Source of the DNA: a virus
Virus record (IMG/VR): IMGVR_UViG_3300042691_050360
Location: 32,001 to 96,000 of that record
Strand: one strand, 5' to 3'
Length of the DNA stretch: 64,000 nucleotides
Below, in pieces: positions 24,765-49,126 of this stretch. The translations under genes and the position numbers were made by a program. The first letter of the stretch is position 1, and the number at the start of each line of letters is the position of its first letter. Under the pieces are notes generated by a model. It searched no databases and had not been told where the DNA came from. It saw only the letters and a list, made by a program, of their open reading frames with translations.

Positions 24765-25583
24765 ATGTCAATTTTCAGAAAAGCCTCAGAATTAAATAAT
24801 TTACCCACTTCTGTGAGTGGTGCTCTTTTTGAAAATCATGATATTAATTTTCCTGATGAATTCGAGGGCCTTCTGAAAGAGGCATCTAGTAATAAATCGG
24901 TATACGAAAATAGACTTAAAAGTTTCCGAGAAGCTGGTTTAATTAAACACGAGTTTGAAGCACCTGCACCGGCTGTTTACCAAGAGGGCCAGGGTGGAAT
25001 CAGGAGAGCTGGTTTTGGCAAGCGTTTGGACGGTGAAAAATCGGAGCTTTTCGGTGAAGATGCTGTTCGATCTATAAACCATAACACAAATAAATATGCT
25101 GAAAATCTTCTCGATAATGGCTTTTCTATTTGGGAGCCCACATTCGACGACATTCAGGATGCCTTTGAGCAATCACAGAAACAATCTGATTCCGTGTTTG
25201 ATCGAAAGTCGGCAGCTGAAAAGAAATCTGTAGCTCATAACAACTGGGAAAAAGAGCAAACGAATCAGATCCGAAAAGCGAATGTTCTTCCTTATAGAGG
25301 ACTTGGAGTATGCAGACTTGCTAATGAAACTCCAATTCACCATGGGGATTTCGGAACATTTGACGAATTCTATGCAAATACTAGCGATAGTATTCGAGAC
25401 ATGGTAAGAGAGTCAAATAGTGCTAGAAAAGCTAAAATCTCAAGAAAGGGTGTAGACCCAGCTGAGCGAATTAATCAATGGCAAAATAAGGAAGCTATCG
25501 CAGCACGAACAATGGAAGCTCTTGAGAATAACTCATTAATGGCAAAGTTCGCTGATAGTATCGGTGTTGAACTTTATGATTAA
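24765..25583 (+). CDS. Probable internal head protein (MSIFRKAS leader)
   Basis: N-terminus nearly identical to the MSIFKKAS genes at 46 kb. Confidence 0.6.
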   Translation: MSIFRKASELNNLPTSVSGALFENHDINFPDEFEGLLKEASSNKSVYENRLKSFREAGLIKHEFEAPAPAVYQEGQGGIRRAGFGKRLDGEKSELFGEDAVRSINHNTNKYAENLLDNGFSIWEPTFDDIQDAFEQSQKQSDSVFDRKSAAEKKSVAHNNWEKEQTNQIRKANVLPYRGLGVCRLANETPIHHGDFGTFDEFYANTSDSIRDMVRESNSARKAKISRKGVDPAERINQWQNKEAIAARTMEALENNSLMAKFADSIGVELYD

Positions 25584-30525: not shown

Positions 30526-33500
30526 ATGATTAAAAGAGGCATAAGCGGTGGAATGTTGTCTGTTAGTTCTTTAATTGACAAGAGCGAAAGATCAGCATTA
30601 GTTAAAAACACTATGGTAAAAACATCTTCTTCTATACGGGAAGCTGCTAAAATTGGTCTTCAGTCGTTGTATGCTAATGCCGATGAAGTTCTCGAAAGAT
30701 ATAAAGATTTTGATATTATCAAGGAAATGAAGGCCAGAAACGGTGCCAACCTTCTCTGGGTAAGAGCAAGAGCTATTGATGCAGATGTTTGTAATGCAAA
30801 CGGTGACTATTTTGAAGAGTCCGAGCTAACTAAAGAAGTGGATTGCCAGGGCAAGAAAATGCCGGCATACAAAACATTCGAAGGTGTGCCTATTTACACC
30901 AACCATAAAAATGACAACATCGAAGAAGCAAAGGGGATGGTTGTTTATGCTGAATGGGATGATGAAGAAAAGTGCGTCTATTGTGTGTTCTTCATAGACG
31001 AAGATGCTTATCCAGATATCGCCAGAGGAGTGCGACAGGGCTATATCCATGATGTATCAATGGGTTGTTCTGTTAATGAAGGTAAGTGCTCCATCTGCGG
31101 CAACAAAGCAACCACTGAAAAAGATTATTGCGATTGTCTTAAAAAATACAAAGGTAAGATGCACCCATCCGGGAAGAAAGCATTTGAATATAACTATGGA
31201 ATTAAATTCATAGAACTTTCCTGCGTAGGAGATGGTGCCTTTGATGCATGTGAAATTCTTGAGCTTTATGATCAAGATGATCTTCTCCAGAAAGCCGCTG
31301 GAACAATTAAATCAGCACAAGCTTTAAACTCATCAATTTCGCTCGCTGTTTCCATGAATGATGAAATTTCTGACAAAAGAGAAGTGGAATCTGCCTTAAG
31401 ACAGCTACAAAATCTGAACAAAGATATTATTAAAATTGCTCAGACAGCTGGAACCCTAGTTGGTGGACAATTAATAGGAAATGCTGGAGCCCAAAATGCT
31501 ACAGTAGTTAAGGTTTTGCAAGGACTCGGTATTGACCCAAGCGGAAGCTTGAATATTCTTGATCTTGTAAATCTTGCACTCAACTTCCTTGAAGTGGCTG
31601 TTTTAAATCTATTCTCAAGAAAAGATAATATCGACCTTACGCATGTGGCTAAGCTCACAAAAGCAATGGGTGAATTACAGAATACGCTCCAAGACATGAT
31701 CGATGACGGAATTGAAACAGCTGGGCAAAAAGGCGGACAACCAATGATTCCAGCACAGCCTCAGCCTCAAGGCCAGCCAGCTGGAGCTGCTCCGGCAGCA
31801 CCCGCTCAAGAGCCTGCACCAGCTCAGGCTGCAGCACCGCCGGCACAGCAAATGAGTTTCACTCCTGCTGTTGGACAAATGATTTCCCCGTTTTCTCAAC
31901 AACCAATGGCTATGCCATTGGGCGGAGGAGTTTCAGCAAGCAACAACAATGTGAGAATGGTCTGGGCTTCATCAAACAATGAAGTGGAATCAACTCCTAT
32001 GACAAAAAATAATCTTAGTAAATTTGGCAAATTTGCTATTGCATTAAACAATTTGAGGGAAGCCTGTGGCGTTCCTGAAAAAATAAATGATGAGGTGATT
32101 TTTAGCACACCTCAGAACAATAAAATACCAGCTTCGAGCGGAGATAAAAAAATTATGGATCATTTCAAGAAAATTGCATCAGACCTTAAAAAGCAAAATA
32201 CAGTTGCTTTAGCAATCGACATTAAGCTCGATGACCAAAGTGGTAATCGAGTTGTGCTCTCTACAGATAAGGGTATTAAAGGCTTCCATAATGGTCGGCT
32301 GACAAATTGGTCACCCAATCTTACAGATGCTCAACTCAATCAAATGGAAAATGGCGATGGCTACCGTGTCGCCGCCGATCTGCTTAAAGATTTCTCTGAC
32401 GTGGTTAAAACAGCTACCAGTATTGATGCACTTATCTCTCTCGATAAGCATGTGGAAGATCACCACGAAAATACTGAAGTTGTTATTTGCGATGTTATCA
32501 CAGACCAGCATTCGGGTAGCAAAGACGAAACTATGCAGCAAAGAATTGATGGTCGAAGAAAGAATAAAGAGCACGAGACAGTTATGGAAGAGATGCTTGG
32601 AGAAAAGAGAACGAAAGATGAAGTTCGAATTGTGACCGAGCTGGCTAAAGATGCCAAAAAGAATCTTGGTGATACACAGCTCGAAGACATGCTTCACCCT
32701 AATTTTGGTCAATCAGCTGTTCCTGGAAAGGAAATCATGAGCGGTGTTATGAATGCCGTGGTTAAGACATGTGTTGCTACAAAAGCTAAACCAGCTGATG
32801 TTTTGGAATTTTTAACCAAATCTGCATCCAATAAGAACTTTGCAAAGATTCTTAAACTGGCAAGACTCGGAACCACCGCTAGAGAGTTTGATTCAATTAT
32901 GAACAAATTTGCTCAAATGGAACTTCCAGATGATGTTGCAGCTCTTCCTGAAACAACTTCGCCCGATATGGATATGCCTATGGAGCAAGCTGCTATTGAA
33001 GATGTTGCCGATGTCACTTCCCCAGAAGCCACTGAAGGAGAAATCATTTCCGCACTTAATGTCATCAAGGATAACTTTTCCACTGCAGTTGAGAAACTAA
33101 CAGAGCTTCTTGATAAAATGAACCCAGAAGAAGCTACTAAAGAAGATGACATGAAAGATGCTCTGGAAGCTGATGAAGCTGACATGGACGGAGAAACCAT
33201 GAAGGGTGCAGTTACAGGATTGTCACTTGCTGGTGAAGAGCTTGGTGAAAGCCCTGAGTCAATGATTGACGCTGTAAACGATATGCCAGTAGATAAGCTT
33301 GCGTCCAAGATTAACGAAGCTAGAAAAGCATCCAAGACTGGCCGAAGAGCCGCTTCAGTTAAGAGCTTGGATAACAGTATCGCTTGCTGGCTTGCAGATG
33401 TATCAAATGAAAGAAATCTTTCTACAGATAAGATTACACTAGCAGCTAAGCTTTTCTGCTCTTATAAAGAGGCCGCTACGAAAGTATTGGAGAAATCAAT

Positions 33501-34710
33501 TAGAACATCTGAAGTTGAAGTGGTTGATGAAACAATTCATACCACCACAATCATGGCCACCCTTGAAGATATCGGAGCCGATGTAGAAGATGCCGCATTT
33601 AATCAAAAATTCAGAGATTTCGCGGTTGACCTCCTTTCCAACTCTGGTTACGAAGTAGACCCAGGCACATTTGCACTTACTGAAATCAATGTTTCGGCAG
33701 ATGGAATGGTTTGCGGTAAAGTTAGTACACGAGCAACAAAAACATTTAGGCCAGAGATTGCAAAGGACATGAAGCCTGATACATATGTCGATAAAGACCG
33801 AGCTATGATGGAAATCAATTCTCCAGCTTTGATGCCAGATGGCATGCCGGAGAATATGCCAGGAATGGAAGTGGTTCCGTCTTCACCTGGAATGGGTGTA
33901 GAGGCACCAGTTGAAATAGTTATGTCAGAATCTGCAAAGACCACAAGAAAACTCGCAAGATTGAAGAATATAGTAAAGGTTGCACAAGGCCTTGGTCTTC
34001 CAGGTGCACCAGCTCCAGCTGGTGGTGCAGGTGCAGGAGCACCAGGAGTAGGTGCTATGGATCCAAATCTTGGTGGAATGGCAGGCGGCCCTGCAGATCT
34101 CGGTGTGGGATCCCTTACTGGATCTACTCCAGAGCTTGGTGAGCCAACAATCGATGAGACTCCAGAGCCAGGTAATAAATCACCATGGGGTTCAATCTGT
34201 CCTCAATGCGGTTCTAAGGATGTTGATATCGCTAACGGAGAAGGCAACTGTAATGCCTGCGGAGCTAAACTAAAATACAAGTTTATTGTTGAGGTGGCAC
34301 CTCCAGAAGAAGGTGGAACAGGAGAGGCTCCAGCACCCGGACTTGATCTAGAAGCTCCAGCCGCACCGGTTGGAGGACTTGGTGCTCCAGAAGCTGGGCT
34401 TGGTGCCGCAGCACCTGCCGCTCCAGCGGCTCCAGGAATGGCTCCAATGGCGTCTTCGCTCAGAGTAATGAAGAGAATTGCATATACCACTTCTGCTGAA
34501 GTTTACGCAAAATCATTATCTGACGGATTTAATCCACATACAGCTGACAAACTCCCCGTAGGGATGTGCTGTCCAGCTTGTGGATCAAGAACAGCTTCTA
34601 AGAAGCAAAAACACACATACTGCTATGATTGCGGAACAATGTCCGTATCAGAAGTGAAAAAAGTGGCTGGGCAACCAGGTACTTTGGAAGCAAGCATTGT
34701 ATGGATATAA
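30526..34710 (+). CDS. Prohead maturation protease fused to a long scaffold-like region and C-terminal zinc ribbons
   Basis: NANGDYF, YTNH (His), VSMGC (Ser), IELSCV protease motifs; CSIC..CDC insert; A/P/G/Q-rich linkers; CPQC/CNAC and CPAC/CYDC; follows portal. Confidence 0.8.
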   Translation: MIKRGISGGMLSVSSLIDKSERSALVKNTMVKTSSSIREAAKIGLQSLYANADEVLERYKDFDIIKEMKARNGANLLWVRARAIDADVCNANGDYFEESELTKEVDCQGKKMPAYKTFEGVPIYTNHKNDNIEEAKGMVVYAEWDDEEKCVYCVFFIDEDAYPDIARGVRQGYIHDVSMGCSVNEGKCSICGNKATTEKDYCDCLKKYKGKMHPSGKKAFEYNYGIKFIELSCVGDGAFDACEILELYDQDDLLQKAAGTIKSAQALNSSISLAVSMNDEISDKREVESALRQLQNLNKDIIKIAQTAGTLVGGQLIGNAGAQNATVVKVLQGLGIDPSGSLNILDLVNLALNFLEVAVLNLFSRKDNIDLTHVAKLTKAMGELQNTLQDMIDDGIETAGQKGGQPMIPAQPQPQGQPAGAAPAAPAQEPAPAQAAAPPAQQMSFTPAVGQMISPFSQQPMAMPLGGGVSASNNNVRMVWASSNNEVESTPMTKNNLSKFGKFAIALNNLREACGVPEKINDEVIFSTPQNNKIPASSGDKKIMDHFKKIASDLKKQNTVALAIDIKLDDQSGNRVVLSTDKGIKGFHNGRLTNWSPNLTDAQLNQMENGDGYRVAADLLKDFSDVVKTATSIDALISLDKHVEDHHENTEVVICDVITDQHSGSKDETMQQRIDGRRKNKEHETVMEEMLGEKRTKDEVRIVTELAKDAKKNLGDTQLEDMLHPNFGQSAVPGKEIMSGVMNAVVKTCVATKAKPADVLEFLTKSASNKNFAKILKLARLGTTAREFDSIMNKFAQMELPDDVAALPETTSPDMDMPMEQAAIEDVADVTSPEATEGEIISALNVIKDNFSTAVEKLTELLDKMNPEEATKEDDMKDALEADEADMDGETMKGAVTGLSLAGEELGESPESMIDAVNDMPVDKLASKINEARKASKTGRRAASVKSLDNSIACWLADVSNERNLSTDKITLAAKLFCSYKEAATKVLEKSIRTSEVEVVDETIHTTTIMATLEDIGADVEDAAFNQKFRDFAVDLLSNSGYEVDPGTFALTEINVSADGMVCGKVSTRATKTFRPEIAKDMKPDTYVDKDRAMMEINSPALMPDGMPENMPGMEVVPSSPGMGVEAPVEIVMSESAKTTRKLARLKNIVKVAQGLGLPGAPAPAGGAGAGAPGVGAMDPNLGGMAGGPADLGVGSLTGSTPELGEPTIDETPEPGNKSPWGSICPQCGSKDVDIANGEGNCNACGAKLKYKFIVEVAPPEEGGTGEAPAPGLDLEAPAAPVGGLGAPEAGLGAAAPAAPAAPGMAPMASSLRVMKRIAYTTSAEVYAKSLSDGFNPHTADKLPVGMCCPACGSRTASKKQKHTYCYDCGTMSVSEVKKVAGQPGTLEASIVWI

Positions 34711-37400: not shown

Positions 37401-38255
37401 ATGGCATTTACCAAGAATAGTGTTGAAGAAACAAGAAATCAAATCGTCGCCATGGCTCTTGAGACAAACGAAGGCAAAACTGCACTCGCTCAGGCAATGG
37501 TCGAACCAATCAAGAACAGCTTGATGTATCAAGCAATCGGTCGAAAGCTTCTGCTCGTCGATGAACTCCCGCAGGGTGTTCTTCCACGATATGAAAGAGA
37601 TGTTACCGCTAAGTCTTTTGTCGTTGGCAAAAGAGGTGCAGTTCCTACCTCCGAAATCGAAGCCGAAGAGCTGTTGGTTCCTACATTCGAAATTGCTGCT
37701 AACCCAGTAATTCGATACTCGGAAGTTAAGGCTCGACGATTCTACATCGTTGACCGAGCTCAGATTCGTGCAAAGGACTCCCTGCAACGACAAGAAGACA
37801 CCGAAGTGTTCAAGGTCATCAACGCAGGTACTCCGCAGGATCAGACCATCAACGTCAACGGTACAGTTCAAATTGAGCAGATTAACCTCGCTCTAACGCT
37901 CATCGAAGAGCACGAACTGATCGGTGCAAAGATCGTCGTTCCTCCGGCACGATACAAGGACTTCAGAGGCTGGGGCCCGGACGTTTACGACCAGGCAACA
38001 CAAAGAGACATCCTGCAGACTGGTCTGTACGGTCACCTCTACACCGCTGACATCCACCTCTCGACAATGGTTCCAAAGAACTGCGTGTTCATCATGGCTC
38101 CTGCCCAATTCGTTGGTGCAATGCCAATCCGACAGGACATCACCGTTCTGCCTGCAGACGATACACGAAGACTCAGATTGGGTTGGGTTGTTTACGAAGA
38201 GCTGGGCTTTGCCGTGATCAATGACTACGCTTTGAGTAAGATTTTAGTAAGCTAG
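37401..38255 (+). CDS. Major capsid protein, compact HK97 fold (encapsulin/Linocin-M18-like)
   Basis: SD AAGGAGG, strong codon bias; LAQAMVEPI, GRKLLLVDELPQG, PTFEIAANP, EDTEVF, GWVVYEELGFAVIN; follows portal-protease-scaffold; terminator downstream. Confidence 0.88.
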   Translation: MAFTKNSVEETRNQIVAMALETNEGKTALAQAMVEPIKNSLMYQAIGRKLLLVDELPQGVLPRYERDVTAKSFVVGKRGAVPTSEIEAEELLVPTFEIAANPVIRYSEVKARRFYIVDRAQIRAKDSLQRQEDTEVFKVINAGTPQDQTINVNGTVQIEQINLALTLIEEHELIGAKIVVPPARYKDFRGWGPDVYDQATQRDILQTGLYGHLYTADIHLSTMVPKNCVFIMAPAQFVGAMPIRQDITVLPADDTRRLRLGWVVYEELGFAVINDYALSKILVS

Positions 38256-39977: not shown

Positions 39978-40955
39978 TTACTGCCCCAATCCCCAAAGAG
40001 GATATTGAACGAAGAGATTTGGATTAGCCCCTAGACCAACCGTTCCGCCTGTAAATCCGCGAAGAGCACCATTGGTTAGATTCATTCCAAATGCCGGGGT
40101 GGCACTTACACCATACTCCACTGCAGTTGGTGTGAAGGCGAGAAACTTACCCAATTGGTAATATTTTGCCGAGCCGTCTGCGTGTCCAACAATAACTCCG
40201 CCGAATGCAGCTCTTACTTCATCCGCTGGTACAGTTTGAAGTGCAGAGTAATTGGCTGTTTGCTTGCCGAGCTCCCATGCCCAGAACTCTCTTACAGCAG
40301 GAGGGAAAACGGTGACTGAATTTGATGAAGCATCTGTGCCGTATGCAATTGGCACAACACCGATCTGGAGGTTGCCAGATTCCATGAGAATACCTGCCGC
40401 AGAAGTATTTGGTAGAGCTGTCATACTTCCACCAAGCCAGCTATTCCGGAACATGGTTGATGATCCTGGTGCTCGATTCCAGGTGTTAAGCTGACCAGTG
40501 AGAGAGGTGTTGAGGAGATAGCTTCCGGTTACCTGTCCGCATTGTGCCCAGCTTCCAGCAGGACAGCTAGGGGTAGATGCATTGGTATTTCCGCGAGATG
40601 TGTTGAAGTAGAGTTGGACATTCTTAACATAAGGCTGTGTCCACTTCTGCCAAGAGAAGTGATTAACTCTGTGTGCAAATCCTGCTGATACTCCGCAGTT
40701 TACTGTACCAACTACGTTGTTGAGGGCACCGTTAAGACTAGAGTTTGCGATGCAATCATCATTGCGTGGATACATATCGTCATTATCGGCACCATACATG
40801 ATGACGCCAAGAGAGATCTGTTTTTGATTACTGATGCCGGTGGCTTTCTTTGCTGCTGCCTTGGCTTGAGCGAAGACGGGGAAGAGGATTGCCGCGAGGA
40901 TTGCGATAATCGCAATCACGACAAGAAGTTCGATTAATGTAAAAGCTTTTTTCAT
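39978..40955 (-). CDS. Type IV prepilin-like protein (N-methylation motif, DUF1559-like body, HADG motif)
   Basis: MKKA/FTLIELLVVIAIIAILAAILFPVFAQAK, SNQKQISLGVIMYGADNDDMYP, PYVKN, GHADGSAK; visibly higher GC than flanks. Confidence 0.93.
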   Translation of the reverse strand: MKKAFTLIELLVVIAIIAILAAILFPVFAQAKAAAKKATGISNQKQISLGVIMYGADNDDMYPRNDDCIANSSLNGALNNVVGTVNCGVSAGFAHRVNHFSWQKWTQPYVKNVQLYFNTSRGNTNASTPSCPAGSWAQCGQVTGSYLLNTSLTGQLNTWNRAPGSSTMFRNSWLGGSMTALPNTSAAGILMESGNLQIGVVPIAYGTDASSNSVTVFPPAVREFWAWELGKQTANYSALQTVPADEVRAAFGGVIVGHADGSAKYYQLGKFLAFTPTAVEYGVSATPAFGMNLTNGALRGFTGGTVGLGANPNLFVQYPLWGLGQ

Positions 40956-41285: not shown

Positions 41286-42614
41286 ATGAGCTTTTCTGAT
41301 ATTCTAAATAGATTCGCCGAGAAAAAAGCACTCCAGGGTGATTCTGATTTCGCCTTTAGACTAATTTCCGCTTCTGAAAAAGAAGAAGAGAAAGAAGAGA
41401 AAGAGGCTGAAATGATTAAGCGGGGCAAGGATCGCAAAAAGGTGGCCAGTAAGGAAGTTTGGATTGAGGCTTATGAGGAGCTACTTATGCGGTTGATTCC
41501 AAAATTTATGGAGCGTGGGCTGGGAGAAGACGAGGCTGAGTTTGCTGCTGAACAATATCTTGAAAAGCATTCTCATTTAGTTGACGCAAGGGCCGGGGAT
41601 TTAGAGGGGATGGCTATTGACCGTGCCATGATGATGCATGGTGACACTTATGCCTCTACTTTATCTAATATGATTAAGAAATATGCAGGTAAGGATCGCA
41701 AAAAGGTGGCCTTCAGCGACGAATCTTGGCTGGATTCCTGGCTTGAGGCTCGTGAAAATCTTTACATGGTTCTGATTCCGAAATTTATGGAGTCAGGTCT
41801 GGGAAAAGATGAGGCCGGGATTGCCGCCGAACAATATCTTGAAGAGCATCCTAATTTAGTTAATGAAAAAGCTGCAATTTTAGAGGAGCGGGATAGTGAC
41901 CGTGCTGTGATGATGGGTGGGGACGCTTACGCCTCTACTTTATCTAATATGATTAAGAAATATGCAGGCGAATCTGAAAAAGGGAGCTACGAAGACGCGA
42001 TCAAGAATCTTCCTGGTTTCACTGGTATGTTTGGCAATGGATTTTGCTTTATGAATAAAGCTCAAGCTCAAAAAGCTTTGGCTATTGGAGAGCAAGCTGC
42101 TAATTTCTTAGATTGGGCAGTTGAGAAACATGATGATGGGTTCATGGCTATTTCTAGAGGTAGAGACAAAAAATCTTCCACGCTTGATTCAATGATTAAG
42201 AAATATGCTGGCGAAGACAAGGAAGATAAAAAAAAAACATCCCAAGAGCTTGAAATAGAAAGATACAATAGAGAGAGGGACAAATGGGACAGGATGAAGA
42301 AAAGATGGGATAAGTTTAAATCAGAAAATCCCCTTCACAAAAAATCTTCCACTCTTGTTTCAATGATTAAGAAATACGCTAAGGAAGATTGGGAAATTAC
42401 TGGTGAAGAATTTTATGGCGGTGAAACTCCTGATTTGGATTTCGAGGACGATAATCAATTCTATGACGCTATGGGTCGTGGATTTGAAGATGCAAAATAC
42501 ACTCCAGAATCGCAGTCAAATCCTTATAGCGGTAATGAAGAATTATCCGCCGCATACGAAGCTGGTGTAAGACACGCCCTTGAAATGCTCCAACAGAGAG
42601 GAACTAAACTTTAA
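41286..42614 (+). CDS. Modular repeat protein, probable processed internal-head polyprotein
   Basis: Four STLxxMIKKYA motifs and two GKDRKKVA-initiated ~90-aa duplicated modules; late-type promoter AGGG-N17-TAAAA upstream. Confidence 0.7.
   Translation: MSFSDILNRFAEKKALQGDSDFAFRLISASEKEEEKEEKEAEMIKRGKDRKKVASKEVWIEAYEELLMRLIPKFMERGLGEDEAEFAAEQYLEKHSHLVDARAGDLEGMAIDRAMMMHGDTYASTLSNMIKKYAGKDRKKVAFSDESWLDSWLEARENLYMVLIPKFMESGLGKDEAGIAAEQYLEEHPNLVNEKAAILEERDSDRAVMMGGDAYASTLSNMIKKYAGESEKGSYEDAIKNLPGFTGMFGNGFCFMNKAQAQKALAIGEQAANFLDWAVEKHDDGFMAISRGRDKKSSTLDSMIKKYAGEDKEDKKKTSQELEIERYNRERDKWDRMKKRWDKFKSENPLHKKSSTLVSMIKKYAKEDWEITGEEFYGGETPDLDFEDDNQFYDAMGRGFEDAKYTPESQSNPYSGNEELSAAYEAGVRHALEMLQQRGTKL
41426..41969 (+). 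repeat. Imperfect tandem duplication (~270-bp unit) within ORF 41286
   Basis: AAGGATCGCAAAAAGGTGGCC at 41426/41691 and GCCTCTACTTTATCTAATATGATTAAGAAATATGCAGG at ~41652/41931. Confidence 0.9.
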
Positions 42615-42616
42615 TC

Positions 42617-43573
42617 ATGAATAAACTAGCACACAATCTGGCTTCTTTAGGGAAAGAGCTTTATTTAAATGGCTTTGAAAAAGAAGCAAAAACTATGCTT
42701 TTTACATCTTTGAGAATTGCACATATGGATCATCCTCTTCTTGAAGTAATTGAAGAAATGGGTTTTGAGCATGCAGATGATGAAAATGTGGGAGGGGGAC
42801 TGGAGATTTTCATTAATGTTCACCCTGATGGCAAAACGGAATATGAGCTGATGAAAGATGGGGATTCTCATGAGTTTGATTCTTTCGAGGAATTAGTGTC
42901 TCATCTTGCTGAAGATGATGAATCAGATTGTGGCTGTGGGTGTGGTGGAGCTTGTAAGGAGGCATCCTCTAGCATCTTTAGAAAAGCGGATTCATTAATG
43001 GATTCGCTAAAGAAAGATAAACTATCTGACCAATACATGGATTATGTTCGTGATTTTGGATACATACCTTATGAAGATTGGCTTGCGGAAAAAGATTATG
43101 CCAATATGGATCTGAGTGAAAAAAATCAAGAAGAGTGTGAGCATGAATCTACTTATGAAGATTGGAGCACTGCGGGCAGGAGTTTTGGGCCGATGATCGT
43201 TTGCTCAGACTGTGGAAAGGTGCTCAGAGCAAAAGACATAGATGACTATGAACGAGAAGAGAGTGAAAGAGAATTTTATCGAACAAGTGCAACAAAGAAA
43301 AAGAACAAACCTCTAAATAAGCCATTTCGAACTCCAGGTGGGCCAAAGAAGTTTTCAGTTTATGTCAAGAATGAAAGCGGTAATGTTGTAAAGGTTAACT
43401 TCGGTGACCCCAATATGTCTATCCGAAGGGATGAACCAGGTCGAAGAAAGAATTTTAGAGCTAGACATAATTGTGATAATCCGGGGCCGAAGACTAAAGC
43501 TCGCTACTGGTCATGTAAAATGTGGCAAAAAGGAAAATCTGTTTCTGAGATGACAAGGAGAAAGAAAAAGTAA
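42617..43573 (+). CDS. Mosaic probable head protein with basic C-terminal domain
   Basis: Leader LNGFEKEAK..LRIAH, internal KEASSSIFRKAD, C-terminal KPFRTPGGPKKFSVYVKN..RRKNFRARHNC..KARYWSCKMW domain recalled from large phages. Confidence 0.65.
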   Translation: MNKLAHNLASLGKELYLNGFEKEAKTMLFTSLRIAHMDHPLLEVIEEMGFEHADDENVGGGLEIFINVHPDGKTEYELMKDGDSHEFDSFEELVSHLAEDDESDCGCGCGGACKEASSSIFRKADSLMDSLKKDKLSDQYMDYVRDFGYIPYEDWLAEKDYANMDLSEKNQEECEHESTYEDWSTAGRSFGPMIVCSDCGKVLRAKDIDDYEREESEREFYRTSATKKKNKPLNKPFRTPGGPKKFSVYVKNESGNVVKVNFGDPNMSIRRDEPGRRKNFRARHNCDNPGPKTKARYWSCKMWQKGKSVSEMTRRKKK

Positions 43574-43574
43574 A

Positions 43575-43919
43575 ATGGGTATCTTTAAATCACCTAAATC
43601 GCGGTTTGTTTTTAGTCAGAACGCTGACGTAATTCAGGAAGAAGATGATTTTCTTGATAGGTACAAATTGATTAAGGTTGAAGAGGATTTTCTTAATAAA
43701 TACAAATTCGAAAAAGAGAGATTTTACAGACTTTTAGAAGAAGACTTAATAGCCCCTTACGAAAAAGATATTACTGAAAAAATTTTTCATGAGCTAGAAA
43801 ACCCAGGTTCGTTTCCAGAAATTGTACCCAGGATAGGCGACCCAAAAAAGAAAATGCTGGAAAAAATACATTTTACGAATCTTGTAGCCCTAAGCAAAAG
43901 ACAACATATTAAAGATTAA
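43575..43919 (+). CDS. Hypothetical protein
   Basis: 114 aa; internal repeat EDDFLDRYK/EEDFLNKYK. Confidence 0.55.
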   Translation: MGIFKSPKSRFVFSQNADVIQEEDDFLDRYKLIKVEEDFLNKYKFEKERFYRLLEEDLIAPYEKDITEKIFHELENPGSFPEIVPRIGDPKKKMLEKIHFTNLVALSKRQHIKD

Positions 43920-43974: not shown

Positions 43975-45105
43975 ATGATTAAATTAAATGCAAACATCGG
44001 CGGTTTACGCCCCAATTTTACTGATAAAGAATACGCTGAATTTATCTCGAAGCTGGAAAACCTAGTACCCGGAAGCTCTGTTCGATTTGGCTCGATCTTT
44101 CACGAGATTTTCTGGAACCCAGAAGATCTGGGTAATTTTAAAGGGCTTGACAAGGTTCTAGAAATCTGCAGAGATAGACAGCTTCAACCTTTGATTTTAG
44201 TGATGCCTACGCCTCATCCAACATCTGGCTGGTACAAAACTGCTAAAAACAGAGACGGCTGGTGGTTGCCTAATGAAGAGTTGATTCCTAAACTAGCTGA
44301 GAAGACTGATGTTTTGGTTAAGCGAGTTCTCGCTAAGTGTAAAGAATTTAAGCTTGAGCCAACTTGGCAGCTGTGGAATGAGCCAGCGGGCAAAGCTTTT
44401 AGCACAGTTACAGGTCACAATCTTGGTAATAAACCAGGGGGGAGTTCTACATCGAAATATGGTGAATGGACGTTAACCCTGCATAAGCTTCTTTGGGAAA
44501 CAAGCCAAGTGTTAAGAAATAATAAGATACCCACCAGTAAAATAATGTCACCGGCTTTCTCTTGTATAGGGGATGGTAACATCCAAGAAGTAAGTGAGGT
44601 TCTCACCTGGATACCACCTAGCGAATATAATTGGCAAAAGAATTGTGGCGTGATAGCCTGCCATCTTTTTTTCAGAGCAGGTTGGGCACAGGATCCAAAA
44701 ACAAGAACAACGGAAGTAACAAATGGGTTTAACGCATCAATGAATTACTTTAAATATTTTGTTGCTAATTTAAGACTTCCTAAGTCTAAGAAAATTGTTA
44801 TTACAGAGTTTTATGTGACACCAGGGATGTGCGGCGTGTTAACTACAGCTAACCCTGAACAGCTTGATCCTTTTAGAACAATTGCATTCGATTTGCTGGC
44901 TAAAGAAAAAATCACCAGTTTTGTTTATGGAATTGGCGACGAAAATGATTCTCCTGGCACTTATTGGCTTGCATACGGCGGATGGAGTCAATGGTTGAAG
45001 AAGAAGAATGCGGCTATTTCGGGCGGATTTAATTCATCTCCTGCTACTGGTGGATTTAATTCATCTCCCGCCACTGGTGGTATCAGCACTTCGCCTGTTA
45101 AGTGA
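43975..45105 (+). CDS. Clan GH-A glycoside hydrolase-like TIM-barrel protein
   Basis: WQLWNEP acid/base and IVITEF nucleophile motifs, IACHLF. Confidence 0.75.
   Translation: MIKLNANIGGLRPNFTDKEYAEFISKLENLVPGSSVRFGSIFHEIFWNPEDLGNFKGLDKVLEICRDRQLQPLILVMPTPHPTSGWYKTAKNRDGWWLPNEELIPKLAEKTDVLVKRVLAKCKEFKLEPTWQLWNEPAGKAFSTVTGHNLGNKPGGSSTSKYGEWTLTLHKLLWETSQVLRNNKIPTSKIMSPAFSCIGDGNIQEVSEVLTWIPPSEYNWQKNCGVIACHLFFRAGWAQDPKTRTTEVTNGFNASMNYFKYFVANLRLPKSKKIVITEFYVTPGMCGVLTTANPEQLDPFRTIAFDLLAKEKITSFVYGIGDENDSPGTYWLAYGGWSQWLKKKNAAISGGFNSSPATGGFNSSPATGGISTSPVK
45022..45096 (+). repeat. 27-bp tandem repeat encoding GGFNSSPAT twice plus a degenerate third copy
   Basis: ggcggatttaattcatctcctgctact / ggtggatttaattcatctcccgccact / ggtggtatcagcacttcgcct. 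Confidence 0.85.
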
Positions 45106-45139
45106 ACTTTCCAATCATGAATTAATGTACAATTAATTC

Positions 45140-46006
45140 ATGATTGGAAAAGGAATTATACTTGCTGGCGGAACTGGTTCTAGATTATATCCAGCCACAC
45201 AATCTGTCAGCAAGCAACTTCTCCCCGTATACGACAAGCCGATGGTTTATTATCCTTTGTCTATTTTGATGAGGGCGGGAATTCGTGATGTTTTAATAAT
45301 CACCACACCGCATGAGCAGAGCTTGTTTCGCAATCTTCTAAAGGATGGTTCTCAATGGGGAATGAGCATTTCATATGAAGTTCAGGCTTCTCCAAATGGT
45401 TTAGCTCAGGCCTTTCTGATTGGAGAGAGATTTATCAATTCCGAGCCTGTGGCTTTGATTCTAGGCGACAATATCTTCTACGGTGGCAATCTGATGAGCG
45501 AGTGTGAGAAGGCTGTAGAAAGAGATTGTGCTACTGTGTTTGCATATCGTGTGAATGAGCCCGAGCATTATGGAGTGGTTGAGCTCGATAAAAAGAATAT
45601 TCCTTTGAGTATCGTAGAGAAGCCGAGCGATCCTAAATCAAATTATGCTGTTACGGGCTTGTACTTCTACGATTCAGATGTTGTTGAAATTGCTAAGAGC
45701 GTGAAACCATCTGAAAGAGGGGAGCTAGAGATTACATCTGTCAATAATGAATATTTAAATCGAGGGAGGTTGGCTGTAGCAAAATTGTCACGGGGATGCA
45801 CTTGGTTTGATGCGGGTACTTTCGACAATTTGCTTGAAGTAAGTAATTATATTGCATCAATTCAAAACAGGCAAGGATTAATTATTGCAAGCCCAGATGA
45901 AATTGCTTTTAGAAACAATTGGATTACACAATCTGAGCTAGATGATTTGATAAATTCTTATGGTAAAAGCTTATATTCTAAGCAATTAAGATTGAGTTTA
46001 GATTGA
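45140..46006 (+). CDS. rmlA: Glucose-1-phosphate thymidylyltransferase
   Basis: KGIILAGGTGSRLYP, SKQLLPVYDKPMVYYPL, LGDNIFYG, IVEKP, SERGELEIT, WFDAGT. Confidence 0.97.
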   Translation: MIGKGIILAGGTGSRLYPATQSVSKQLLPVYDKPMVYYPLSILMRAGIRDVLIITTPHEQSLFRNLLKDGSQWGMSISYEVQASPNGLAQAFLIGERFINSEPVALILGDNIFYGGNLMSECEKAVERDCATVFAYRVNEPEHYGVVELDKKNIPLSIVEKPSDPKSNYAVTGLYFYDSDVVEIAKSVKPSERGELEITSVNNEYLNRGRLAVAKLSRGCTWFDAGTFDNLLEVSNYIASIQNRQGLIIASPDEIAFRNNWITQSELDDLINSYGKSLYSKQLRLSLD

Positions 46007-46008
46007 GT

Positions 46009-46326
46009 TTAGAGAATTTTATCAGCAAGAGCGGCAGCTTTTGCAAAAGCCGCGAGCATACCCGAGCGATAATCATCTGAGTCTGAGTCGCTTAATTCAA
46101 CACTATTGCTATATTCATTCAATGCTTCGATGAATTTCTGCTTTTGAGTAATTGGTTTAAAGCTTTCACGACCTCGTTTATCAACATTAGTTTCCCACGA
46201 TCTATTTATGTCATCTCTCAATGCTGCATCTTCCATGCCTGGATCGGGGTTGTTATAATCATCAAGCCCCTGGCTGATCACCGAGCGGACGATTGGCGTA
46301 ACAGACGCTTTCTTAAAGATTGACAT
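46009..46326 (-). CDS. Small acidic protein with MSIFKKASV leader (copy A)
   Basis: Shares the first ~24 aa with the adjacent gene; own late promoter. Confidence 0.75.
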   Translation of the reverse strand: MSIFKKASVTPIVRSVISQGLDDYNNPDPGMEDAALRDDINRSWETNVDKRGRESFKPITQKQKFIEALNEYSNSVELSDSDSDDYRSGMLAAFAKAAALADKIL

Positions 46327-46364
46327 AGTATTTATTTCTTTTTAGATTGTGCTGGTTCCTTGTT
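46299..46364. repeat. 66-bp perfect direct repeat, copy 1 (late promoter plus leader start)
   Basis: Identical to 46611-46676; minus strand reads AGGA-N18-GAAAT..ATG TCA ATC TTT AAG AAA GCG TCT GTT. Confidence 0.95.
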
Positions 46365-46638
46365 AAAGCCAATTTAATGCTCTGAGTTGATCTCTGATTT
46401 GTTCGTAGTCAAATCCGTCAAAATAAAACTTGGCGACTAATAGTGCCTGGCGATCATTACCCGATTTGTAAAGATTTTTAAACATCTGTGATACTTTATC
46501 TTCTCCACTATTAAATAAACCATCTCGATCTTCAATATCATCGTTTAATTGATCTTCTTCCGGCGAATAATCCTCCAAACCTTGACTAATAACAGTCTTA
46601 ACGATAGGCATAACAGACGCTTTCTTAAAGATTGACAT
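46363..46638 (-). CDS. Small acidic protein with MSIFKKASV leader (copy B)
   Basis: Same leader as 46009-46326 but an unrelated body. Confidence 0.75.
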   Translation of the reverse strand: MSIFKKASVMPIVKTVISQGLEDYSPEEDQLNDDIEDRDGLFNSGEDKVSQMFKNLYKSGNDRQALLVAKFYFDGFDYEQIRDQLRALNWL

Positions 46639-46676
46639 AGTATTTATTTCTTTTTAGATTGTGCTGGTTCCTTGTT
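46611..46676. repeat. 66-bp perfect direct repeat, copy 2
   Basis: Identical to 46299-46364; period 312 bp. Confidence 0.95.
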
Positions 46677-47090
46677 CATGCTCACAGAGATCCCAACAAC
46701 TTGGTGGTAGTTTTTTCGCCCGATCTTTACCAGTGTAAAAACACAATCTGGATAAACAATGTCAAAGCCATTATCATTGAAGAAATATTTTTGTGGATTC
46801 CCAAAGTTTTTAATTACTGATTTAAAATCAGACATAAGTCCCACATTTCTGTACTTCACAGATTTGTTTAAACCATAGGCTTGCAGTGTTACAACTTTGC
46901 TATTTTTATCACTGATTGCTGTGAGTAGATATGATTCTCTGGAATAAGTAAAGGACTGAATTCTTTTGTCATCAGATTGATCTAATGTGATTGGGTTTCC
47001 AAATCTATTAGTGACATCGAGAATGGAGATATTCGGGCCGAATCCAAGGAAGCCGGGGAATGCAGATAGTGTTAGGAGAATTGATAGCAT
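46644..47090 (-). CDS. Probable exported protein with two FGNP-containing modules
   Basis: Hydrophobic N-terminus; DVTNRFGNP / SVIKNFGNP. Confidence 0.55.
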   Translation of the reverse strand: MLSILLTLSAFPGFLGFGPNISILDVTNRFGNPITLDQSDDKRIQSFTYSRESYLLTAISDKNSKVVTLQAYGLNKSVKYRNVGLMSDFKSVIKNFGNPQKYFFNDNGFDIVYPDCVFTLVKIGRKNYHQVVGISVSMNKEPAQSKKK

Positions 47091-47124
47091 AAATATATAT
47101 ACGAAAGATGTATAAACTAATTGT

Positions 47125-47364
47125 ATGGCACTTGATAGATGGAGTATGGCGAATATAGCTCAAGAAGAAGCGGCCAAGGCTCTTCAGCAATATAAAATTG
47201 ATGACAGAATCAAAGCGGCTATTGAAGCAGAGCTTCAAACAAAAATAAAACAGGAAATAGATTCTCAATTCGCGGACATGAAAACCGCAGTGAAGATCAT
47301 GAACGAGCAAATTATTATTTTAAAAGATGCAGTGGAAATACTCAGTAAAAAATACAATAAGTAA
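47125..47364 (+). CDS. Small coiled-coil protein
   Basis: 79 aa with heptad character; TAAACT-N6-ATG upstream. Confidence 0.6.
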   Translation: MALDRWSMANIAQEEAAKALQQYKIDDRIKAAIEAELQTKIKQEIDSQFADMKTAVKIMNEQIIILKDAVEILSKKYNK

Positions 47365-47812
47365 AATCATTTTTTCAAGCCCGATTGCATTCTTTCTTGG
47401 CGTGGGTGTGTTTGTTGCCACTGACGTTTTGCAGCCGAGCTATTTCAAGAATATCCCCGCTTATTTTCCTTATTTTATAGCCGCGATGGTAGTGGGCTAC
47501 CTGGCTGTATTCCTCGCATCTTCTTATATATCCACAACAAAATCTAAACCAAGAGCTATATTTTTTATGCTTTTATTCATGGCTATGGAAGGGTTGTTCT
47601 CTGTTTTAGCGGTTTCCACTTATTATGGAAGTCAGGAAATACCAATTTTGAGAATAGTTTCAGGGCTGTGTTTACCCTTGGTGTTTAGCTTGTTCTATTT
47701 TTTGAAAATCATAGAAGCCGAGCCGGTTGTAAAAAATGTAAAAGAATTAATAGATGAAGCAGATCTTTTTAAAAACTTTGATGAGCTTGAGCTTAGCAAG
47801 CCTGATTTCTAG
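47327..47812 (+). CDS. Integral membrane protein (about 4 TM helices)
   Basis: Four hydrophobic stretches and an acidic tail. Confidence 0.7.
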   Translation: MQWKYSVKNTISKIIFSSPIAFFLGVGVFVATDVLQPSYFKNIPAYFPYFIAAMVVGYLAVFLASSYISTTKSKPRAIFFMLLFMAMEGLFSVLAVSTYYGSQEIPILRIVSGLCLPLVFSLFYFLKIIEAEPVVKNVKELIDEADLFKNFDELELSKPDF

Positions 47813-48293
47813 TTGTGCGAATAAACCGATTGAAAGTAAATTAATTTTAATTGATATATCTGGCTCTAATGCGGTTAATATCACAAAAACCTTAAGTAAA
47901 GTAAATGATATTTACATGGAGAGTGGGCCAGGTGATATCTTTGAAATTTATTTCTTTTCGAGTGTGAAATACCTAGCGTACAATGGTGCTAAGTTCAATA
48001 AAGACCGCGATTTTTTACCATTCATTCAGAAGGGCTATGAAAAGACAAAAGAGATTAAAGTAAAAGAAGGCACTTCTTTTGATATTTGTAAATCAATTCT
48101 GGAAAAAACAAATGGCTATACATCAGCTTACATTCTGACAGATGGGTTTTTCGAAGATTCAAAAATCACAAAAATCAACACACCACAAAATCTGAAAATA
48201 AATATTGTTGGACTCAATATACAAAACAATGAGATTGTGTTAAATGCTTTTAAAGATCCTGGACAAGTGACGATAGATTTTCAAGGTGATTAA
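47754..48293 (+). CDS. VWA-domain lipoprotein
   Basis: Lipobox LISSC; MIDAS LIDISGS, GTSF, YILTDG. Confidence 0.75.
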   Translation: MKQIFLKTLMSLSLASLISSCANKPIESKLILIDISGSNAVNITKTLSKVNDIYMESGPGDIFEIYFFSSVKYLAYNGAKFNKDRDFLPFIQKGYEKTKEIKVKEGTSFDICKSILEKTNGYTSAYILTDGFFEDSKITKINTPQNLKINIVGLNIQNNEIVLNAFKDPGQVTIDFQGD

Positions 48294-48310
48294 TTATAAT
48301 CTTAAGAAAA
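48284..48310 (+). promoter_or_regulatory. Putative late (sigmaH-like) promoter
   Basis: AGGT-N18-GAAAA, ATG 8 nt downstream. Confidence 0.6.
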
Positions 48311-48317
48311 TAAAGAT

Positions 48318-48851
48318 ATGATTGATCTTTATTTGTTCGAAATTAAATGTGCTGAAGAAATTGGGGATTATAGGCTGGCAGATTCTTTAGATAGCAAATT
48401 AATGCGAATCGCTTCTTCTAATCACAGAGAGATACAGAAGAAGATTACAAGAAAAGTTGAATCAGATTCAGCAATTAAAGATGTTTCATTTTCAAATTCG
48501 AGGCAGAAATTCATCGTATCAGCGGATCAATCTTTGAGTAATTTCACAAAGAGAGAAATTCAATCTTTGGCGGGGCCATATCCTGTGTCCTTCCGATACA
48601 GCAATAAAACAATCGACGAGCTTATGTCGGGTGAATCGGAAGACCCCATGCAAAGGCATTTAAATGAGCTTGAACAGCTGGGTCCAGATTATGTAGGTTT
48701 GGACTCACTTGATGACATGGAGCCGTCAGATGAGGATCTGAGGTTCACTGCGGAGCATCCTGAAAATGAGTTTAACGAAGACCCGGAAGACATAGACGCA
48801 TTCTTGCTGGAATTCGCCCGAGATAATATGCGAACACAGCCTGGATATTAG
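48318..48851 (+). CDS. Probable internal head protein with shared leader
   Basis: AEEIGDYRLADSLDSKLMRIASS leader; acidic C-terminus. Confidence 0.55.
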   Translation: MIDLYLFEIKCAEEIGDYRLADSLDSKLMRIASSNHREIQKKITRKVESDSAIKDVSFSNSRQKFIVSADQSLSNFTKREIQSLAGPYPVSFRYSNKTIDELMSGESEDPMQRHLNELEQLGPDYVGLDSLDDMEPSDEDLRFTAEHPENEFNEDPEDIDAFLLEFARDNMRTQPGY

Positions 48852-49126
48852 ATTTCTCTATTGAAGAAATCTGCTTCAAACGGTGGGGCATCAAGATTTA
48901 ATTTTGATTCCAGTTCATGTATTTTGTAGAATTTCACTTTGTGTGTTGCGAGTAATGGAGTGTATGTTGCTAAGTTGATCAGTAACTCGTGATATTTTTC
49001 GCCTATAATTTTAACTATAAGAAGAAGCTCTTCGTTTGTGTATTTTCTATCTGTTAGCTTAGAAAGAAATTTGTCAAGAGCTGCCGCTTGAGATAAATAA
49101 AGTTTGGCTACTTCGTTTGGCTCCAT
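48848..49126 (-). CDS. Hypothetical protein
   Basis: 92 aa at the end of the minus-strand module. Confidence 0.55.
   Translation of the reverse strand: MEPNEVAKLYLSQAAALDKFLSKLTDRKYTNEELLLIVKIIGEKYHELLINLATYTPLLATHKVKFYKIHELESKLNLDAPPFEADFFNREI

What the first reader, a model, noticed from the sequence alone, without database searches (positions are those of the whole stretch)
46009..46676. Gene birth by duplication of a late-promoter-plus-leader cassette
A perfect 66-bp direct repeat (46299-46364, 46611-46676) holds a full late-type promoter (AGGA-N18-GAAAT), a CACAATCT word and the first 9 codons MSIFKKASV. Similarity fades after about codon 24 (ISQGL[DE]DY) and the two bodies are unrelated. 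The same leader opens ORF 24765 (MSIFRKAS) and occurs inside 42617 (SSIFRKAD). Inference: new payload sequences are captured behind a reusable expression-and-packaging cassette.
Basis: partly seen in the sequence, partly recalled or inferred. Interest (0 to 1): 0.72.

Follow-up and report, generated by a model that had tools for sequence, protein, structure and literature searches.

The report
Shuffled small-gene cassettes in jumbo phage
Two neighbouring small genes of an uncultured lake jumbo phage share an identical promoter-plus-first-codons unit, and related phages carry one to four such units with different gene bodies at the same spot, so this is a locus that swaps small genes by recombination, much like the injected internal-protein genes of phage T4, and not the birth of a new gene.

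Summary
A perfect 66-bp direct repeat (46299-46364 and 46611-46676, minus strand) covers 37 bases upstream and the first 9 codons of two tandem genes, A (105 aa) and B (91 aa). Five independent metagenome contigs carry the same tandem, so it is not an assembly artefact. The "gene birth / captured payload" reading is not supported. Both bodies are old types with full-length relatives in other phages at this same locus, between a 148-aa ORF and a convergent rmlA-like gene.

What is there is a hypervariable array. Each unit is a promoter-like AGG-N19-GAAAT element (a real, position-specific motif that also precedes head genes), a near-invariant leader of about 21 residues (M[SAG]IFKKASVxPIV..VISQG), and a variable body. 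Related phages hold one to four units, and near-identical genomes differ by exactly one unit. Codon usage shows that the identical 66 bp reflect recent recombination or gene conversion, not protein-level selection.

The first eight residues also open a conserved 272-aa helical protein in the head module, and a shortened leader opens ORF 43575. A capsid-targeting role like that of T4 internal proteins is plausible (about 35%) but untested.

This same stretch was also noted from another window of this genome.

The parts
46611..46676 (-). Repeat copy 1: the promoter-like element and codons 1-9 of gene B. Its upstream part also encodes the last residues and stop of the 148-aa ORF.
   Evidence: exact 66-bp match to 46299-46364.
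46299..46364 (-). Repeat copy 2: the promoter-like element and codons 1-9 of gene A. It begins at the stop codon of B.
46646..46672 (-). AGG-N19-GAAAT promoter-like element of B, ending 7 nt before the ATG.
   Evidence: The motif is conserved, with a variable spacer sequence, in L002, L006, L007, L021 and L027.
46334..46360 (-). AGG-N19-GAAAT promoter-like element of A, ending 7 nt before the ATG.
46363..46638 (-). Gene B, 91 aa: leader plus a 'B-type' body (...FYFDGFDYEQIRDQL...).
   Evidence: Relatives include P0025, P0017, P0012 and L027 unit iii. B is absent from the contig of a close relative (P0001 contig).
46009..46326 (-). Gene A, 105 aa: leader plus an 'A-type' body. It is the positional counterpart of the gene next to rmlA in L002.
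   Evidence: AF2 model: residues 1-33 coil, then three helices. A nonsense variant at 46085 is present in L011 and L012.
46644..47090 (-). 148-aa ORF with a signal-peptide-like N-terminus. It is the conserved left flank of the array.
   Evidence: It is replaced by an IS605-type TnpB gene in L002.
45140..46006 (+). Convergent rmlA-like nucleotidyltransferase gene. It is the conserved right flank of the array.
   Evidence: Precomputed Pfam NTP_transferase hits on the counterpart genes in related contigs.
24765..25583 (+). 272-aa all-helical protein in the head module that opens with the same eight residues (MSIFRKAS).
   Evidence: 48 relatives, N-terminus near-invariant; AF2 model: long helices, pTM 0.20; ordinary Shine-Dalgarno site, different codons.
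43575..43919 (+). 114-aa ORF that opens with a shortened leader (MGIFKSPKSRFVFSQ).
   Evidence: hhalign against the family: E 7.6e-4 over 20 columns. It sits directly after ORF 42617, where the small family sits in L004 and L009.
42971..42988 (+). Internal SIFRKA inside ORF 42617.
   Evidence: It lies in an insertion shared with L002 but absent from the L004 and L009 counterparts.
30526..34710 (+). 1394-aa protein with a head-maturation-protease domain at its N-terminus (context: a processing enzyme exists).
   Evidence: phrog_18299, E 2.7e-20. The major head protein is at 37401-38255 (phrog_2522, E 3e-65). Portal and large terminase.

Best explanation
The window comes from an uncultured freshwater jumbo phage. 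Between a 148-aa ORF and a convergent rmlA-like gene lies a hypervariable array of small genes. Each unit has three parts: (1) a promoter-like AGG-N19-GAAAT element ending 7 nt before the ATG, of the class that also precedes head-morphogenesis genes; (2) about 21-24 codons for a near-invariant, probably unstructured N-terminal leader (M[SAG]IFKKASVxPIV[RK][ST]V[IV]SQG[LI]); and (3) a short, fast-changing, mostly helical body. Shown: units are gained, lost and exchanged between related phages, and the promoter-plus-leader stretch is kept nearly identical among units of one genome. Inferred: that stretch is the homology that drives unequal recombination and gene conversion. In this phage two old body types, B and A, have been stacked in tandem. 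The perfect 66 bp are the footprint of that recent recombination or conversion, and they also allow B to be excised again. Inferred, not shown: the leader is a docking or targeting peptide. Its first eight residues are shared with a conserved scaffold-like protein of the head module, so it may load these variable proteins into the prohead, where the prohead protease could trim it, as the capsid targeting sequence does for T4 internal proteins. The bodies would then be injected counter-defence or host-takeover factors.
For: Locus and family:
- A profile search of 1.84 billion representative proteins finds 32 clusters, all 63-142 aa, all starting with the leader at residue 1, with variable bodies.
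- The same locus in relatives holds A-type only (L002; P0001 contig, 98% identical A and no B), P0017 only (L006), P0033 only (L021-L023), units i+iii (L028, L031, L007), i+ii (L032, L033), i+ii+iii (L027), or an 85-aa gene plus A-type (P0007 contig).
- L027 differs from L028, and from L033, by one gap of 334 or 336 nt in 2.2 kb that is otherwise 97-98% identical. Each gap is exactly one unit.
- The L027 junctions keep remnants of the 3' flank that end right at the AGG of the next cassette (35/36 and 16/18 nt).

Homogenisation of the cassette:
- The two window leaders are 66/66 identical. The counterpart leaders of other phages match the window at 59/66, 54/66 and 48/66.
- Synonymous codon differences are 0 of 8 in codons 2-9 and 8 of 11 in codons 10-24.
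- The three L027 cassettes are 91-92/97 identical, then 18-26/60 in the next 60 nt.

Promoter-like motif: spacer-specific enrichment before start codons, including those of the protease gene and the gene preceding the major head protein gene.

Leader as a peptide signal:
- Synonymous variation across phages, and members that are translationally coupled and lack the promoter-like element (L004, L009), show the constraint is on the peptide.
- The octapeptide is near-invariant in 48 relatives of the 272-aa head-module protein, which uses different codons and a normal ribosome-binding site.
- AF2 models residues 1-33 of A as coil.
- P0034 carries the leader on an unrelated body.
- A prohead protease is present.

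Precedent: the T4 capsid targeting sequence and the diverse internal proteins (PMC3012670, PMC7411985, PMC12373910), and promoter-cassette shuffling (PMC2839356).
Against: - There are no virion proteomics, cleavage data or expression data. The targeting role rests on analogy and on a shared octapeptide.
- The leader shows no sequence similarity to the T4 capsid targeting sequence, and the small proteins hit no internal-protein family.
- The array sits beside cell-surface-type genes (rmlA-like gene, signal-peptide ORF, lipoprotein-like ORF), not inside the head module.
- The direction of the event (gain of B, or loss of B in the P0001 lineage) is not resolved. No B-less DNA could be fetched.
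- The B-A junction of the window shows no significant 3'-flank remnant, unlike L027.
- Whether the AGG-N19-GAAAT motif is a promoter, and whether it is 'late', is inferred from position only.
Confidence: 0.6

Rival explanations
1. Gene birth: the promoter-plus-leader unit was duplicated onto unrelated or non-coding sequence, creating gene B anew in this phage.
For: Identity ends abruptly, and the C-terminal halves of A and B cannot be shown to be homologous.
Against: B's body has relatives over its whole length in other phages: P0025 and P0017 (about 48% identity in the C-terminal part, E about 1e-11), P0012, and L027 unit iii. They sit at the same locus, so the body is older than the tandem.
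Confidence: 0.04
2. Plain in-place tandem duplication of one gene followed by divergence, with the 5' end kept identical by purifying selection on the peptide and the promoter.
For: The genes are adjacent, of similar size and in the same orientation. Family-wide alignments show a co-linear motif order (KQhhxEL ... aromatic-x-x-G ... C-terminal helix).
Against: Selection on the peptide cannot explain 0 of 8 synonymous codon differences in codons 2-9 beside 8 of 11 in codons 10-24, because the same codons vary freely between phages. The A-type and B-type lineages both occur in other phages, so the split predates this genome.
Confidence: 0.1
3. The same array and the same recombination history, but the leader is not a capsid signal. 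It could be a conserved module that binds some other partner (a host target, a phage chaperone or protease, a membrane or tail-assembly factor), with the variable bodies tuning specificity.
For: The neighbours are surface or membrane-type genes. There is a weak hit of A to a tail-fibre-assembly family (phrog_105, E 0.0017). The array lies next to the tail module. No cleavage or packaging evidence exists.
Against: The octapeptide is shared with a conserved protein in the head module, between terminase and portal. The cassette's promoter-like motif is shared with head genes. The phrog_105 hit is marginal and covers only the variable linker.
Confidence: 0.3
4. Assembly artefact: the repeat results from a mis-join or collapsed strain variation.
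For: Some contigs break at or within a repeat copy (L013 ends at 46299, the edge of the A-side copy; L015 starts at 46669, inside the B-side copy). This shows that assemblers see a branch there.
Against: Three contigs from separate samples span both copies in full (L011, L012, L014), and L015 reaches into both. All are identical or differ by one base.
Confidence: 0.01

Closest known systems
T-even phage internal-protein (IP) loci with the capsid targeting sequence (CTS)
   Same: Both have small, non-homologous or fast-diverging proteins that share only a short N-terminal peptide. Both are encoded in highly variable loci whose content differs between close relatives, and repeated regulatory elements are associated with those loci. 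The phage has a prohead protease (PMC3012670; PMC7411985; PMC12373910; PMC2839356 discussing Repoila et al. 1994).
   Different: No sequence similarity to the T4 CTS or IPs. The leader here is longer (about 21-24 residues, of which only 8 are shared with the head-module protein). Packaging, cleavage and injection are untested. The phage is unrelated to T4 (large terminase 22-25% identical to any cultured phage).
PeSL regulatory cassettes of T4-type phages (promoter-early stem-loops) that mediate modular shuffling
   Same: A repeated unit of about 70-100 bp that carries a promoter and flanks small non-essential genes. Close relatives differ by insertion or deletion of exactly one flanked gene. 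Recombination between flanking copies explains both excision and insertion (PMC2839356, PMC4122927).
   Different: PeSLs are intergenic (sigma-70-like early promoter plus terminator stem-loop). The unit here has no stem-loop, has a different promoter-like motif shared with head genes, and extends into the coding region, so every inserted gene inherits the same N-terminal peptide.
Integron gene cassettes
   Same: An array of small, variable, promoter-dependent genes assembled at one site and bounded by a repeated recombination sequence.
   Different: No integrase or attC-like structured site was seen. The exchange is best explained by general homologous or unequal recombination. Each unit carries its own promoter.

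Membership tests
T4-type internal proteins with a capsid targeting sequence | A short N-terminal peptide shared by otherwise unrelated proteins of one phage | tested here: met
   The M[SG]IF[KR] start is found on A, B, ORF 24765 and ORF 43575 in the window. In relatives it is found on P0034 (different body), on the 252-aa protein of L033, and on tag-only ORFs in L018 and L034.
T4-type internal proteins with a capsid targeting sequence | The peptide directs incorporation into the prohead core | not testable with these tools
   No proteomics or assembly assay is available. The only support is indirect: the tag is shared with a head-module protein and the promoter-like motif with head genes.
T4-type internal proteins with a capsid targeting sequence | The peptide is removed by the prohead protease at a defined motif | not testable with these tools
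   A protease domain exists (phrog_18299, E 2.7e-20). Its cleavage specificity is unknown. Pfam S77 and S78 models find nothing in the contig.
T4-type internal proteins with a capsid targeting sequence | Sequence homology to known IP or CTS families | tested here: not met
   No PHROG or Pfam family for A or B apart from a marginal phrog_105 hit. The Atlas search gave nothing usable.
PeSL-type mobile regulatory cassettes | A repeated promoter-bearing unit flanks small variable genes, and close relatives differ by one flanked gene | tested here: met
   Window (B+A) against the P0001 contig (A only). L027 against L028 and L033 (one-unit gaps of 334 and 336 nt).
PeSL-type mobile regulatory cassettes | Sigma-70-like early promoter plus a terminator stem-loop, located between genes | tested here: not met
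   No terminator-like site in 45900-47400. The fold of the unit is no better than shuffles (z = -0.28). The motif is AGG-N19-GAAAT, and the unit runs into the coding region.
Tail fibre assembly proteins (phrog_105) | A significant match to the family profile over the conserved domain | tested here: not met
   E 0.0017, 18.7 bits, residues 27-78 of A only. There is no hit for B.

The most novel reading that the evidence does not exclude
An unrelated, uncultured clade of freshwater jumbo phages has independently evolved an 'internal-protein' system. In it, a portable unit made of a head-gene-type promoter plus a coded N-terminal loading tag serves both as the address label that packs small effector proteins into the capsid and as the recombination site that shuffles those effectors between phages. 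It would be a cassette system in which every newly acquired body is automatically expressed at the right time and delivered with the DNA.
Probability: 0.3. Interest if true: 0.75.

Novelty: new variant of a known kind. Interest (0 to 1): 0.58.

Why it matters
If the leader is a loading tag, this locus points to the injected proteins of a phage group that has no cultured member and almost no annotated genes. It would also give a simple rule, the N-terminal M[SAG]IFK... tag, for finding such proteins in metagenomes. Independently of function, it is a clean natural example of a promoter-plus-leader unit acting as the homology that stacks, swaps and deletes small genes. That extends the PeSL and T-even IP-locus idea beyond T4-like phages and into coding sequence. 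The population data (B present or absent, a nonsense allele of A) make it testable with existing lake metagenomes.

Tried and rejected
- Near-identity DNA search of 44000-49000 against cultured phages found no match. The large terminase is only 22-25% identical to any cultured phage.
- The strict AGGA-N18-GAAAT scan gave 4 hits, two of them the repeat itself. I first read this as 'not a recurrent promoter' and withdrew that after the spacer-resolved test.
- CACAATCT as a promoter word is rejected. It has 92 copies on both strands, mostly in coding sequence, and about 6 lie upstream of genes, as expected from the non-coding fraction.
- Structured RNA in the repeat is rejected: z = -0.28 and no Rfam match.
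- Homology of the A-type and B-type C-terminal halves by hhalign was not significant (E 0.056 and 0.054). The significant hit (E 2.9e-7) is carried by residues 26-50, a segment that bridging members share with A, which is also compatible with mosaicism.
- Relation of the small family to the last module of the ORF 41286 'polyprotein' (YEAG motif) was not significant.
- Pfam prohead proteases S77 and S78 found nothing in the contig. The protease was found through PHROGs instead.
- IMG/VR scans for B, for ORF 24765 and for the MSIFKKAS codons returned only one relative of ORF 24765.
- A metagenome pattern for the B-less junction gave 0 hits.
- A remnant of the rmlA 3' end at the window's B-A junction was not significant (30% of shuffles score as well).
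- I ran no fold searches, because both AF2 models were too weak (pTM 0.20 and 0.32). The Atlas search gave nothing usable.

Full report
**What the window is.** The window is bases 32001-96000 of a 166.5-kb viral contig that CheckV rates about 46% complete. It encodes a large terminase, a portal, a 1394-aa protein with a head-maturation-protease domain, and a major head protein. No cultured phage is close: a near-identity DNA search found no match, and the terminase is 22-25% identical at best. Related contigs reach 190-389 kb. This is therefore an uncultured jumbo-phage clade from lake metagenomes.

**The observation.** The 66-bp direct repeat is exact (46299-46364 and 46611-46676), and nothing comparable appears in shuffles.
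- On the minus strand it spans -37 to +27 of two tandem genes, A (46009-46326, 105 aa) and B (46363-46638, 91 aa).
- The repeat starts at B's stop codon in one copy. In the other copy it overlaps the last codons of a 148-aa ORF.
- After +27 the proteins stay alike to residue 24, but the DNA does not. Among codons that encode the same residue, 0 of 8 differ in codons 2-9 and 8 of 11 differ in codons 10-24.
- Five independent contigs (L011-L015) carry the same tandem with 0-1 differences, and four of them reach into both repeat copies. It is not an assembly artefact.

**The promoter claim.** My first strict test looked negative. Resolved by spacer, however, AGG-N19-GAAA[AT] has 23 matches in the contig, and 11 of them end 7-16 nt before a called ATG. 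For spacers of 15-18 and 20-23 nt the figure is 8 of 174 (Fisher p = 2e-7).
- The 11 include the starts of the protease gene, the gene before the major head protein, ORFs 19694 and 21187, and both A and B.
- The motif is conserved with a variable spacer sequence upstream of family members in L002, L006, L007, L021 and L027.
- It is thus a real, positioned element of promoter-like geometry. With 7 nt from GAAAT to the ATG, the mRNAs would be nearly leaderless.
- That it is 'late' is inferred only from the genes it precedes.
- A second promoter-like word, [TC]GTA[TC]A[AT], precedes the neighbouring 148-aa ORF, the rmlA-like gene and others. A and B therefore belong to a different regulatory class from their neighbours.
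- CACAATCT is not cassette-specific. It is the commonest 8-mer of the genome (92 copies, 45 on one strand and 47 on the other, mostly in genes).
- The unit shows no RNA structure and no terminator.

**The gene family.**
- A has full-length relatives at 48-57% identity, and B has its own.
- A profile search of 1.84 billion representative proteins finds 32 clusters. All are 63-142 aa and all begin at residue 1 with M[SAG]IFKKASVxPIV[RK][ST]V[IV]SQG[LI]. Their bodies range from alignable to unrelated.
- AF2 models residues 1-33 of A as coil, followed by three helices. So the best-conserved part is probably an unstructured peptide.
- The constraint is on the peptide, not the DNA. Codons 1-9 vary synonymously between phages, and distant members (L004, L009) are translationally coupled to the upstream gene without any AGG element.

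**Are the two bodies related?** Only partly shown.
- Bridging members (P0012, P0013, P0015, P0017) share residues 22-47 with A-type proteins and the C-terminal domain with B-type proteins.
- hhalign of residues 26 to the end gives E 2.9e-7, but that signal lies in the shared 22-47 segment.
- The last 45-50 residues align co-linearly (KQhhxEL, aromatic-x-x-G, terminal helix) without significance (E about 0.05).
- All four combinations of the middle segment and the two C-terminal types exist. That fits either repeated loss or modular exchange.
- Elsewhere the leader clearly sits on a different body. P0034 joins residues 1-21 to a domain 69% identical (E 9e-44) to the N-terminal part of a 252-aa protein of a related phage.

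**The locus in relatives.** This is the decisive evidence. The same slot is bounded by the 79-aa and 148-aa ORFs on one side and by the convergent rmlA-like gene on the other. It holds:
- one A-type gene in L002, where an IS605-type TnpB gene has replaced the 148-aa ORF;
- one A' gene (98% identical to A) and no B, on the P0001 contig;
- P0017 alone in L006;
- P0033, with a unique body, alone in L021-L023;
- units i+iii in L028, L031 and L007;
- units i+ii in L032 and L033;
- units i+ii+iii in L027;
- an 85-aa gene plus an A-type gene on the P0007 contig;
- B+A in the window.

Further points on these arrays:
- L034 carries four tagged small genes within 1.8 kb.
- L027 differs from L028, and from L033, by a single gap of 334 or 336 nt in 2.2 kb that is otherwise 97-98% identical. 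Each gap is exactly one unit.
- The three L027 cassettes are 91-92/97 identical from -34 to +63. Identity then drops to chance level.
- The L027 junctions retain 35/36- and 16/18-nt remnants of the 3' flank that end exactly at the AGG of the next cassette. Units were therefore stacked as cassette + body + 3' flank.

**Reading of the 66 bp.** The two window leaders are 66/66 identical. The counterpart leaders of other phages match the window at 59/66, 54/66 and 48/66. Together with the synonymous-site contrast, this means recent recombination or gene conversion between units. It is neither slow divergence after an in-place duplication nor selection on the peptide. Both body types are older than the event, so B was not born here. 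The two types were stacked. The P0001 contig shows that a B-less state exists in a 98%-identical relative. Whether that state is ancestral or an excision product is open, because its DNA could not be fetched. In L011 and L012 the only difference in up to 3.2 kb is a nonsense change at codon 81 of A. This hints that one of the two genes is dispensable.

**What the leader may do.**
- Its first eight residues, MSIF[KR]KAS, open the 272-aa ORF 24765 in the head module, between terminase and portal. They are near-invariant in 48 relatives at 46-81% identity. That gene uses different codons and an ordinary ribosome-binding site.
- The 272-aa protein is modelled as long helices with a poor global fold (pTM 0.20), which is scaffold-like.
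- A shortened leader opens ORF 43575 (hhalign E 7.6e-4).
- An internal copy in ORF 42617 lies in a lineage-specific insertion.
- In summary: a tag shared by unrelated proteins, co-regulation with head genes, an unstructured N-terminus, and the presence of a prohead protease. Together these match the logic of the T4 capsid targeting sequence. In T4, diverse internal proteins share only an N-terminal peptide that binds the prohead core and is cut off by gp21 (PMC3012670, PMC7411985). Those proteins are injected inhibitors of host restriction (PMC12373910).
- Nothing here shows packaging or cleavage. I put this reading at about 35%, and a different binding partner at about 30%.

**Comparison with the known.**
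- The closest analogues are the hypervariable IP loci of T-even phages and the PeSL cassettes of T4-type phages. In those, recombination between repeated promoter units inserts or deletes single small genes and can release mini-circles (PMC2839356, PMC4122927). PMC2839356 notes that Repoila et al. 1994 saw PeSL-like elements at the IP loci.
- This locus works like both but belongs to neither. It has no homology to IPs or the T4 targeting sequence, no stem-loop and a different promoter-like motif, and the repeated unit extends into the coding region.
- I class it as a new variant of a known kind.

**Earlier notes of this scan.**
- They gave me the AGG-N19 wording, which I tested and which changed my view of the promoter.
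- They pointed to the protease in ORF 30526 (confirmed).
- They pointed to the CACAATCT word (confirmed).
- They suggested a head-protein K/R-x-A motif, which I did not test.

Noticed in passing
whole contig; e.g. window 12771, 13533, 38383, 39088, 45198, 45927 (+) and 46344, 46656 (as AGATTGTG): (A)CACAATCT(G) is the commonest 8-mer of the 166-kb contig: 92 copies, 45 on one strand and 47 on the other, mostly inside genes and in any reading frame. It is also dense in related contigs (14 in 16 kb of L002). It is not enriched upstream of genes. Its function is unknown; a binding site or a recombination signal are possibilities.
   Followed up: partly
window, 7-15 nt before many start codons, e.g. 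13556, 16864, 38364, 39978(-), 45140, 46644(-), 47125: A second promoter-like word, [TC]GTA[TC]A[AT] (TGTACAA, TGTATAA, CGTATAT; 13-22-fold enriched upstream of genes), sits so close to the ATG that the transcripts would be leaderless. It marks a different gene set from AGG-N19-GAAAT.
   Followed up: partly
L002:6672-7793 and L019:4089-5288: IS605-family TnpB genes are inserted at or next to this same variable locus in two related phages. In L002 the TnpB gene replaces all but the last ~40 nt of the 148-aa ORF.
   Followed up: partly
window 46085: Contigs L011 and L012 carry a single base change that turns codon 81 of gene A (TCA) into a stop. It is the only difference from the window in up to 3.2 kb. 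L015 has a different single change at 46053.
   Followed up: yes
window 41286-42614 and 21637-23364: The 442-aa ORF has four S[TS]Lx[SN]MIKKYA[GK] delimiters between modules, and the 575-aa ORF ends in SALSYMIKKYAIKH. The motif loosely resembles the SIF[KR]KA tag. A relation to the small family was not significant.
   Followed up: partly
L020:474-761: The 95-aa ORF just upstream of family member P0021 ends in ...TSIFKK followed by a stop. This may be a vestigial leader copy left by recombination.
   Followed up: no
window 45108-45150: A perfect 19-bp inverted repeat with a 5-nt loop covers the start codon of the rmlA-like gene, with TGTACAA at the loop.
   Followed up: no
window 45022-45075: A 27-bp tandem duplication (89% identical) encodes GGFNSSPAT twice at the C-terminus of the 376-aa ORF.
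   Followed up: no
window 39978-40955 (-): A 325-aa ORF carries a prepilin-type N-terminal methylation motif (Pfam N_methyl, E 2e-7). It is antisense to its neighbours, in a stretch richer in G+C.
   Followed up: no
L032:688-948: In L032, unit ii has an altered C-terminus (P0037 form) that overlaps the end of the rmlA-like gene. The L033 copy is intact, so this is another recent rearrangement at the array's edge.
   Followed up: no
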